Positions 44,789-45,248 of a DNA stretch of 64,000 nucleotides are shown here, in pieces (the stretch's first letter is position 1; each line of letters begins with the position of its first letter). The notes below the pieces were generated by a model. The model was not told where the DNA came from, searched no databases, and saw nothing but the letters and a program-made list of their open reading frames with translations. The DNA is from the human T2T-CHM13v2.0 reference genome, Homo sapiens. A program made the position numbers and the translations under genes. Location: the NCBI RefSeq assembly GCF_009914755.1, contig NC_060943.1; one strand, written 5' to 3'.

Positions 44789-45248
44789 GTGTGTGTGTGT
44801 GTGTGTGTGTGTGTGTGTGTGTTGTTTTGTTTTTTTTTTTGTTTTTTTTTTTTTGAGACGGAGTCTCGCTCTGTACCCCAGGCTGGAGTGAAGTGATGCT
44901 ATCTCAGCTCACTGCAAGCTCTGCCTCCTGGGTTCACGCCATTCTCCTGCCTCAGCCTCCCAAATAGCTGGGACCACAGGCGCCCGCCACCATGCCCGGC
45001 TAATTTTTTGTATTTTTAGTAGAGACGGAGTTTCACCGTGTTATCCAGGATGGTCTCGACCTCCCAACCTACCTGTAGTGGGTAAATGGTCAGAGCCTCC
45101 CGGTCAGTTCCAGGCTGCAGCTGTCCAATGACAAGAGGACCCTCACTCTACTCAGTGTCACAAGGAATGACACAGGACCCTATGAGTGTGAAATACCGAA
45201 CCCAGTGGGTGCCAGCTACAGTGACCCAGTCACGCTGAATGCCCAGCC
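44789..45248 (-). mobile_element. AluY with (GT)n tail, interrupted by the exon-derived insert
   Basis: AluY diagnostic positions; TSD TGAA(A)CAGCAAAG at ~44773-44784 and 45249-45261. Confidence 0.9.
45065..45241 (+). repeat. 177-bp copy of part of the CEACAM3 A pseudo-exon (48685-48861) embedded in an AluY
   Basis: Direct comparison at offset 3620: 176/177 identical (45071 a vs 48691 g). Confidence 0.95.

What the first reader, a model, noticed from the sequence alone, without database searches (positions are those of the whole stretch)
45065..45241. Dead Ig-exon fragment pasted into an AluY: locally templated insertion next to a head-to-head Alu hairpin
Seen: about 57 nt near the 5' end of an antisense AluY (consensus CGTGATCC...CCACCGC) is missing and replaced by 177 bp that is 176/177 identical to 48685-48861, 3.62 kb downstream. 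The left junction has (CA)ACCT microhomology, and the Alu's terminal GCCCAGCC and TSD survive. The Alu head is only 32 nt from an inverted Alu at 45281. Both copies share the TAG stop, but only the insert keeps TAC as in CEACAM6 (the source has TGC). Inference: order of events was stop mutation, then copying, then Y>C. A hairpin/cruciform break at the inverted Alus may have been repaired by template switching, lengthening the effective spacer and stabilising the repeat. An assembly artefact is the alternative.
Basis: partly seen in the sequence, partly recalled or inferred. Interest (0 to 1): 0.75.

Follow-up and report, generated by a model that had tools for sequence, protein, structure and literature searches.

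The report
Exon fragment copied into an Alu
A 177-base piece of a dead immunoglobulin-type exon in an intron of human CEACAM3 was copied 3.6 kb upstream into an old Alu repeat, replacing about 60 bases of it; this looks like an ordinary, probably harmless scar of DNA break repair.

Summary
Window 45065-45241 matches 48685-48861 at 176 of 177 bases. It is the only non-self pair of at least 94% identity in the window. The next-best copy in the whole genome is 92%.

The copy sits inside an antisense Alu. That Alu lacks 57-63 nt of its head but keeps its last 8 nt and its target-site duplication. The junctions show ACCT (4 nt) and G/TG (1-2 nt) microhomology. The insert has no poly-A and no duplication of its own.

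This is a deletion plus templated insertion made by microhomology-mediated template switching, which is a known kind of event. Both Alus are far older than the insert.

The proposed hairpin trigger is not refuted, but support is weak:
- The arms are about 80% alike.
- The pair coexisted for most of the Alus' lifetime.
- The deletion spares the spacer.
- Head-to-head Alu pairs with 24-36 nt spacers are over-represented in the genome (PMC3215922).

The "AluY" label is doubtful. The mismatch is the ancestral base in the insert (8 of 8 paralogues), but it lies right beside the microhomology, so a copying error is also possible.

CEACAM3 is 106 bp longer here than in hg38, and the event's net gain is 114 bp. 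The insert may therefore be polymorphic.

The parts
44773..44788 (.). Left Alu target-site duplication, upstream copy (imperfect)
   Evidence: Read. It matches 45249-45265 apart from two single-base indels.
44788..44855 (-). A-tail of the left Alu, seen as (TG)17.5 plus a T-rich run on the + strand
   Evidence: Tandem repeat rows at 44788-44822 and 44825-44854.
44856..45064 (-). Body of the left antisense Alu (Y/Sc-like group). Alu register continues through ACCT to 45070.
   Evidence: Alignment with four window Alus. BLAST hit 44868-45070 on the minus strand. Against the group consensus it differs at 10/181 non-CpG and 9/30 CpG positions.
45065..45241 (+). Inserted copy of the pseudo-exon fragment. 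45067-45070 (ACCT) and 45241 (G) are shared with the Alu as junction microhomology.
   Evidence: 176/177 identical to 48685-48861. In the exon's frame it reads TYL*WVNGQ....
45241..45248 (-). Surviving terminal 8 nt of the left Alu head
45249..45265 (.). Left Alu target-site duplication, downstream copy; first half of the 32-nt spacer
45266..45280 (.). Right Alu target-site duplication, upstream copy; second half of the spacer. It abuts the left duplication at TTT|AAAA.
   Evidence: It matches about 45574-45589 apart from one extra G.
45281..45577 (+). Right sense Alu (S-like) with its A-tail; head-to-head partner of the left Alu
   Evidence: Against the S-group consensus it differs at 23/241 non-CpG and 15/34 CpG positions. 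Inverted-repeat pair I1 has 199-nt arms, 80% complementary.
48154..48473 (-). Antisense Alu 211 nt upstream of the donor stretch. It is the window Alu most like the left Alu (88% over 195 nt) and has the same orientation.
   Evidence: Family D1.
48589..48867 (+). Donor: relic IgC2-type exon in CEACAM3 intron 2. It has one in-frame TAG and is 254/279 identical to CEACAM6 exon 2602-2880.
   Evidence: hub annotation (LOC100422623 and alternative CEACAM3 exons).
48685..48861 (+). The donor stretch that was copied

Best explanation
The feature is a one-step deletion-insertion. A break or stalled synthesis occurred in the head of an old antisense Alu in CEACAM3 intron 2. It was repaired by copying 171-177 nt of DNA from the relic Ig exon 3.62 kb downstream on the same strand, with loss of 57-63 nt of Alu.

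The most economical path is inferred, not shown:
1. The 3' end on the right side of the break (bottom strand, ending opposite TG at 45240-45241) primed on the donor at 48860-48861, using 1-2 nt of microhomology.
2. It copied leftwards to 48685 and then released.
3. It re-annealed to the left Alu end through ACCT. The two bases beyond ACCT would form G-T wobbles against the Alu's TG, which would explain why CA from the donor was kept.
4. The Alu flap was trimmed.

This carries the signature of microhomology-mediated template switching (FoSTeS/MMBIR, or synthesis-dependent end joining). The event is much younger than both Alus. It has no splice sites and is most likely neutral. It may still be polymorphic in humans. 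What caused the break is unknown.
For: Donor and copy:
- The donor is intact and the copy is in the same orientation, 176/177 identical.
- It is the only such pair in the window, and the next genomic copy is 92%.
- The insert is a fragment with no exon ends, whereas the donor is a whole exon 254/279 identical to a CEACAM6 exon. That fixes the direction of copying.

A single Alu was interrupted:
- The same Alu continues on both sides of the insert and has its own target-site duplication.
- ACCT lies in Alu register at the left junction (also seen in 3 other window Alus in family D6).
- G or TG is shared at the right junction.
- The insert has no poly-A and no duplication of its own.

Age:
- There is 1 mismatch in 177, and all 3 CpGs are intact in both copies.
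- The left Alu differs from its group consensus at 19/211 positions, and the right Alu from its group at 38/275.
- If the insert were as old as the left Alu, about 32 mismatches would be expected (my arithmetic).

Precedent: germline templated insertions of 7 bp to 13 kb, with 0-6 bp of microhomology, are described as the FoSTeS/MMBIR signature (PMC5120786, passages).

Possible polymorphism:
- CEACAM3 NM_001815 spans 14,968 bp in hg38 (PMC8383343, passages) and 15,074 bp here, a difference of +106. The event's net gain is +114.
- The gene holds only short microsatellites and no long-period array (19 rows).
- CEACAM6 differs by only 6 bp between the two assemblies (same sources).
Against: - No second haplotype, read set or primate orthologue could be examined, so the empty site has not been seen.
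- The priming direction rests on two bases (CA), which could in principle be drift in this Alu.
- DNA and RNA templates cannot be told apart from the insert itself, because it lies within one exon.
- Gene conversion between the two copies could make the event look younger than it is.
- The hg38 length argument is indirect. On the same arithmetic CEACAM5 differs by +132 bp between the paper's transcript span and the hub's gene span, which may reflect annotation or another variant.
Confidence: 0.8

Rival explanations
1. The head-to-head Alu pair with its 32-nt spacer extruded a hairpin or cruciform, which broke. Template-switch repair then lengthened the spacer and stabilised the repeat.
For: - The break lies 8-65 nt from the inner end of one arm of an inverted Alu pair with a 32-nt spacer.
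- Both Alus predate the insert.
- After the event the long arms are 277-289 nt apart.
- The predicted single-strand fold weakens from -225.4 to -195.8 kcal/mol. The pre-event model borrows 57 nt from another window Alu.
- Hairpin-driven loss of closely spaced inverted Alus is an accepted idea (PMC3215922, PMC10164571; passages).
Against: - The arms are 80% complementary now, and the event is too recent for this to have been much higher then.
- The right Alu carries 8 differences from consensus in the ~65 nt next to the centre.
- In yeast, going from a 12 to a 20 bp spacer cuts Alu inverted-repeat recombination about 40-fold, and 12 to 100 bp about 300-fold. Instability is lost at 75% homology, and a single mismatch near the centre already matters (PMC10164571 summarising Lobachev 2000). 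The original paper is not held.
- The pair coexisted for roughly 80-97% of the younger Alu's lifetime without this event (my arithmetic).
- The spacer, both target-site duplications and 8 nt of Alu head are intact. The break was therefore not in the loop, and the deletion is not symmetric about the centre.
- Head-to-head full-length pairs with 24-36 bp spacers outnumber direct pairs genome-wide, so the configuration is common and tolerated (PMC3215922).
- The present strand still folds with 164 Alu-to-Alu pairs, so the 'defusing' is partial.
Confidence: 0.15
2. RNA-derived patch, as in class 2 templated sequence insertions. A fragment of CEACAM3 transcript containing the relic exon was reverse-transcribed and used to fill a double-strand break.
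For: - The size (177 nt) lies within the 73-414 bp range (median 191 bp) of experimental templated insertions.
- Class 2 events show microdeletion and microhomology and lack a duplication and a poly-A (PMC5110952, passages).
- The donor lies inside an annotated alternative CEACAM3 exon, 48589-49095 (hub table).
Against: - Those insertions are described as coming from distant regions, not nearby sequence. Here the donor is 3.62 kb away in cis and in the same orientation, which a free cDNA would hit only by rare chance.
- CEACAM3 is a granulocyte gene (my recall), so germline transcripts are unlikely.
- No splice junction or other RNA mark is present in the insert.
Confidence: 0.07
3. An assembly artefact, or a mutation private to the cell line that was assembled.
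For: - Only one assembly was seen.
- The gene is 106 bp longer here than in hg38.
Against: - The junctions are clean and show microhomology, and the replaced stretch is an exact in-register piece of one Alu. That is what a biological repair event looks like. It is not what a collapse or a chimeric join between 177-nt repeats looks like.
- The insert differs from the donor at one base, which a simple mis-join of reads from the donor would not produce.
Confidence: 0.04
4. The exon fragment was acquired when the Alu inserted, by reverse-transcriptase template switching during retrotransposition. Alternatively, it is an old exon duplicate flanked by two unrelated Alu pieces.
For: Chimeric retrocopies are known (my recall).
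Against: - The insert is about 30 times less diverged than the Alu around it.
- For an antisense Alu the cDNA strand is the + strand, so the template would have had to be antisense CEACAM3 RNA (inference from orientation).
- The two Alu parts are in register and share one target-site duplication.
Confidence: 0.01

Closest known systems
Templated insertions at breakpoint junctions from microhomology-mediated template switching (FoSTeS/MMBIR; classical 'filler DNA')
   Same: The donor is kept intact. The copy has 0-6 bp of microhomology at its junctions, is accompanied by a deletion at the target, and has no duplication or poly-A. Germline insert sizes range from a few bp to kilobases (PMC5120786, passages).
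   Different: This is an isolated small event with one switch out and one switch back. It is not part of a larger copy-number rearrangement. It sits in a reference-quality assembly as an apparently neutral intronic variant.
Class 2 templated sequence insertion polymorphisms (Onozawa and Aplan)
   Same: A patch of about 190 bp fills a break. There is microdeletion and microhomology, and no L1 hallmarks (PMC5110952, passages).
   Different: Those patches map to distant loci and are argued to be RNA-derived. Here the donor is 3.62 kb away in cis and on the same strand, which favours a DNA template. Polymorphism is only suggested here.
Polymerase-theta end joining with templated inserts
   Same: Priming on 1-4 nt of microhomology, release and re-annealing. 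Germline indels at meiotic hotspots show this signature (PMC7615360, passages).
   Different: From my recall, such inserts are usually much shorter and are templated within tens of bases of the break, not 177 nt from 3.6 kb away. No PRDM9-like 13-mer was found within 43.5-46.5 kb (the motif itself is recalled).
[quoted passage not shown]
   Same: A head-to-head pair with a short spacer, and a lesion in one arm near the centre.
   Different: The arms are about 80% alike and the spacer is 32 nt. The deletion spares the spacer. This spacing class is over-represented rather than depleted (PMC3215922; PMC10164571).

Membership tests
Templated insertion by microhomology-mediated template switching (FoSTeS/MMBIR-type deletion-insertion) | The inserted sequence has an identifiable donor that remains intact (copy, not cut-and-paste) | tested here: met
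   176/177 identity to 48685-48861, which lies within a complete exon. The next-best genomic copy is 92%.
Templated insertion by microhomology-mediated template switching (FoSTeS/MMBIR-type deletion-insertion) | Short (0-6 bp) microhomology at the junctions | tested here: met
   ACCT in Alru register at the left junction, read as Alu register. G, or TG if the CpG had decayed, at the right junction.
Templated insertion by microhomology-mediated template switching (FoSTeS/MMBIR-type deletion-insertion) | No retrotransposition hallmarks for the insert (target-site duplication, poly-A) | tested here: met
   The sequence at 45040-45270 shows neither. Instead, 57-63 nt of the target were lost.
Templated insertion by microhomology-mediated template switching (FoSTeS/MMBIR-type deletion-insertion) | Replicative origin (stalled fork) as opposed to two-ended break repair | not testable with these tools
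   The sequence alone does not distinguish the two.
Class 2 templated sequence insertion polymorphism | Donor in a distant genomic region, RNA-derived | tested here: not met
   The donor is 3,620 bp away on the same strand. An RNA origin is not testable because the insert lies within one exon.
Class 2 templated sequence insertion polymorphism | Present or absent among human genomes | tested here: inconclusive
   The gene span is 15,074 bp here against 14,968 bp in hg38 (+106), and the event's net gain is +114. There is no long-period repeat in the gene. No second haplotype sequence was available. A scan of genome contigs for the spacer gave 0 hits.
Hairpin/cruciform-induced breakage at inverted Alu repeats | Closely spaced inverted arms | tested here: met
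   The spacer was 32 nt before the event.
Hairpin/cruciform-induced breakage at inverted Alu repeats | High arm homology, especially next to the centre | tested here: not met
   80% over the 199-nt arms. There are 8 differences from consensus in the inner ~65 nt of the right Alu. The yeast threshold data come from PMC10164571.
Hairpin/cruciform-induced breakage at inverted Alu repeats | Lesion centred on the axis of symmetry or removing the loop | tested here: not met
   The spacer, both target-site duplications and 8 nt of Alu head are intact. The loss is confined to one arm.
AluY subfamily (label given to the left Alu) | Subfamily-diagnostic bases and low divergence | tested here: inconclusive
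   The left Alu shares 7 non-CpG states with 8 other window Alus of a Y/Sc-like group. It differs from that group's consensus at 10/181 non-CpG and 9/30 CpG positions. No reference library of Alu subfamilies was available. From recall, the element looks more like AluSc/Sp than AluY.

The most novel reading that the evidence does not exclude
The insert is a young, still-polymorphic human variant. It arose because a head-to-head Alu pair that shares one L1-endonuclease site (spacer = two target-site duplications) folded back in single-stranded DNA during replication. The stalled strand escaped by copying 177 nt from 3.6 kb away. On this reading the locus is a natural, datable example of an inverted Alu pair being 'defused' by a templated patch. 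It would point to a class of arm-internal deletion-insertions that can be counted in pangenomes to measure inverted-Alu fragility in the human germline.
Probability: 0.12. Interest if true: 0.55.

Novelty: new member of a known kind. Interest (0 to 1): 0.27.

Why it matters
Taken alone, the event is a neutral intronic scar with little consequence. It has no splice sites and lies outside every annotated CEACAM3 exon.

Its value is as a clean, fully resolved example of a local templated deletion-insertion in the germline. The donor, both junctions and the lost sequence can all be read.

It also suggests a practical test. If it is polymorphic, a 114-bp size difference across 44.8-45.3 kb would mark the haplotypes. 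The same search pattern, run over pangenomes, could ask whether closely spaced inverted Alus really attract such repairs.

A side observation may be useful. Both Alus used one TTT|AAAA site on opposite strands, so the spacer equals two target-site duplications. That gives a simple reading of the published excess of head-to-head Alu pairs at 24-36 bp spacing.

Tried and rejected
- Lobachev et al. 2000 is not held. I used the summary of it in PMC10164571.
- A first literature query failed on a term that was too long. It was re-sent with shorter terms.
- A scan of genome contigs for the 30-nt spacer, hoping for a stray second human haplotype, gave 0 matches.
- A PRDM9-like 13-mer (recalled motif) was sought as a sign of a meiotic hotspot. 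There were 0 hits in 43.5-46.5 kb, and 9 and 4 on the two strands of the whole window. This is uninformative.
- Homology-driven copying through the similar Alu at 48154-48473 was considered. A product primed in that Alu should carry its head and 48474-48684, which the insert lacks. At most, that Alu may have brought the donor close during a failed homology search; this is speculation.
- Priming from the left Alu end was rejected because the product keeps CA, not the Alu's TG.
- Acquisition during Alu retrotransposition, and an old exon duplicate between two Alu pieces, were both rejected on age, strand and the shared target-site duplication.
- No primate orthologue, GRCh38 sequence or read data can be reached with these tools.
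- No search for earlier reports of this particular insert was made beyond, none of which mention it.

Full report
**1. What is in the sequence**

Window 45065-45241 and 48685-48861 are 176/177 identical without gaps. The one difference is 45071 A against 48691 G, and similarity stops abruptly on both sides.

A self-comparison of the whole 64-kb window at 94% or more and 50 nt or more finds this pair and nothing else. A search of the whole assembly with the 177 nt returns 40 matches, all on the same chromosome. They are the insert (100%), the stretch 3,620 bp downstream (99%), and then CEACAM/PSG-type exons at 92% and below. The local stretch is therefore the donor, and chance is not an issue.

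The donor lies in a complete 279-nt relic exon (48589-48867). That exon is 254/279 identical to the CEACAM6 exon at 2602-2880 and has a single in-frame TAG. The insert is an internal fragment of it, starting 96 nt into the exon and ending 6 nt before its end. It has neither splice site. The direction of copying is therefore clear.

**2. The recipient**

Aligned with four other window Alus, the antisense Alu beginning with a T-rich tail at about 44825 follows them up to ...ACCT at 45070. It then lacks the 57 nt that its closest neighbour carries at 48403-48459, and ends with the last 8 nt of an Alu head at 45241-45248.

The two bases before ACCT (CA, 45065-45066) equal the donor. Other window Alus have TG, CG or TG at that position (family D6). 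The loss is therefore 57-63 nt and the gain 171-177 nt, with a net change of +114 either way. The right junction shares G (45241), or TG if that Alu CpG had already decayed.

The Alu's own target-site duplication survives in imperfect form (about 44773-44788 and 45249-45265). One Alu was therefore interrupted; this is not two Alu pieces flanking an old exon copy. The insert itself has no poly-A and no duplication.

**3. The neighbour**

A sense Alu starts at 45281, 32 nt from the head of the left one. Its duplication is 45266-45280 and about 45574-45589.

The two duplications abut exactly at TTT|AAAA. This reads as one L1-endonuclease-type site (motif recalled; the TSIP review quotes 5'-TTTT/A-3') that was nicked on opposite strands by two insertions. 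The 32-nt spacer is therefore simply the sum of the two target-site duplications.

This fits the published observation that head-to-head full-length Alu pairs are over-represented at spacers of 24-36 bp. That is the only spacing range where inverted pairs outnumber direct ones (PMC3215922, passages).

**4. Ages**

I collected 30 near-full-length Alus from the window plus the left Alu body (31 rows, chosen from the 42 BLAST hits; short or partial hits were left out). I aligned them and compared each with majority consensuses.

- The left Alu shares seven non-CpG states with a consistent group of eight others, a Y/Sc-like group. It differs from that group's consensus at 10/181 non-CpG and 9/30 CpG positions.
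- The right Alu is S-like and differs from its group consensus at 23/241 non-CpG and 15/34 CpG positions.
- The consensuses come from few copies, so these figures are rough.
- The insert and donor differ at 1/177, and their three CpGs are intact in both copies.

If the insert were as old as the Alu around it, about 32 differences would be expected (my arithmetic). The Poisson upper bound for one difference puts the event within roughly the last sixth of the left Alu's lifetime, and the point estimate is about 3%. Both Alus therefore long predate the insert, and the right one is probably the older. Gene conversion between the copies could exaggerate the youth of the insert. 'AluY' as a label is not established.

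**5. How it most likely happened**

The following features together are the signature described for microhomology-mediated template switching:
- an intact donor in cis and in the same orientation;
- a simultaneous loss at the target;
- microhomology of 4 nt at one junction and 1-2 nt at the other;
- no retrotransposition marks.

That literature reports germline templated insertions from 7 bp to 13 kb, with 0-6 bp of microhomology (PMC5120786, passages). Microhomology-rich germline indels are also described at meiotic breaks (PMC7615360, passages).

Because the product keeps the donor's CA rather than the Alu's TG, copying most simply started at the right junction and ended at the left. The new strand would then have re-annealed through ACCT, with the two further bases as G-T wobbles. 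This direction is an inference from two bases.

**6. The mismatch**

All 8 paralogous exons examined carry A where the insert has A and the donor has G. All 8 carry TGG where both copies have TAG.

However, the mismatch is the very first base after the ACCT microhomology. A later A>G change in the donor needs that coincidence of position. A copying error needs the coincidence of hitting the ancestral base. A donor polymorphism is a third possibility. I rate these as comparable, and ape and human haplotype data would decide.

**7. The hairpin idea**

The geometry claim is right. The long complementary arms are now 44872-45070 and 45348-45546, which is 199 nt at 80%, 277 nt apart. Before the event, the spacer was 32 nt.

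With DNA parameters the present top strand folds at -195.8 kcal/mol and keeps 164 Alu-to-Alu pairs. A pre-event model folds at -225.4 kcal/mol. That model borrows 57 nt from the Alu at 48403-48459.

As a cause, the case is weak:
- The arms were about 80% alike at the time.
- The right Alu has 8 differences from consensus in its inner ~65 nt.
- In yeast, Alu inverted-repeat recombination falls about 40-fold from a 12 to a 20 bp spacer and about 300-fold by 100 bp. It vanishes at 75% homology, and is sensitive to a single mismatch near the centre (PMC10164571, passages summarising Lobachev 2000; the original is not held).
- The pair sat together for most of its history without this event.
- The spacer, both duplications and 8 nt of Alu head are untouched, so the break was not in the loop and the loss is not symmetric.
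- Pairs with this spacing are common genome-wide.

The same Nucleic Acids Research paper shows that divergent, spaced repeats can still interact in long single-stranded DNA, so the idea is not excluded. I give it about 15%.

**8. Other rivals**

- An RNA-derived patch (class 2 TSIP) fits the size (median 191 bp) and the junction features (PMC5110952, passages). Those patches come from distant loci, however, and a donor 3.6 kb away in cis would be a rare coincidence.
- Acquisition during Alu insertion fails on age and on strand.
- A mis-assembly is unlikely given in-register junctions and a base difference from the donor, but it could not be checked against reads.

**9. A lead on polymorphism**

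A paper that lists hg38 coordinates gives CEACAM3 NM_001815 as chr19:41796587-41811554, which is 14,968 bp (PMC8383343, passages). The same transcript spans 15,074 bp here, a difference of +106. The event adds a net 114 bp.

The gene contains only short microsatellites (TG, T, TGT, TTTG and GGAG runs) and no long-period array (19 rows). CEACAM6 differs by only 6 bp between the two assemblies on the same arithmetic.

This is consistent with the insert being absent from GRCh38, but it is not proof. CEACAM5 differs by +132 bp between the paper's span and the hub's gene span, for reasons I could not examine.

**10. Verdict**

The event is an ordinary member of a known class of repair scars, in an intron, with no evident function. 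The hairpin trigger is an attractive but weakly supported addition.

Noticed in passing
window 45249-45280: The target-site duplications of the two head-to-head Alus abut exactly at TTT|AAAA. Both insertions therefore used one endonuclease-type site on opposite strands, and the 32-nt spacer equals two duplications. This would explain the published excess of head-to-head Alu pairs at 24-36 bp spacing (PMC3215922).
   Followed up: partly
window 48589-48867 and 49253-49511: The two relic IgC2-type exons in CEACAM3 intron 2 are well preserved. The first has a single stop (TAG for Trp). The second is open throughout in the frame that matches the CEACAM6 exon at 3322-3576.
   Followed up: partly
window 37959-53032: The CEACAM3 transcript span is 15,074 bp here against 14,968 bp in hg38 coordinates quoted in PMC8383343. 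CEACAM6 differs by 6 bp and CEACAM7 by 1 bp. CEACAM5 differs by 132 bp on the hub's gene span.
   Followed up: partly
window 44788-44822: A perfect (TG)17.5 microsatellite has grown at the junction of the left Alu's tail and its target-site duplication. It is a likely source of small length differences between haplotypes.
   Followed up: no
window 48154-48473: The Alu lying 211 nt upstream of the donor stretch is the window Alu most similar to the interrupted one (88% over 195 nt, same orientation). Whether it helped bring donor and break together is open.
   Followed up: partly
window 63202-63470: This is the youngest-looking Alu in the window. Only 4 of 46 CpG positions and 7 of 229 other positions differ from the Y/Sc-like group consensus.
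   Followed up: no
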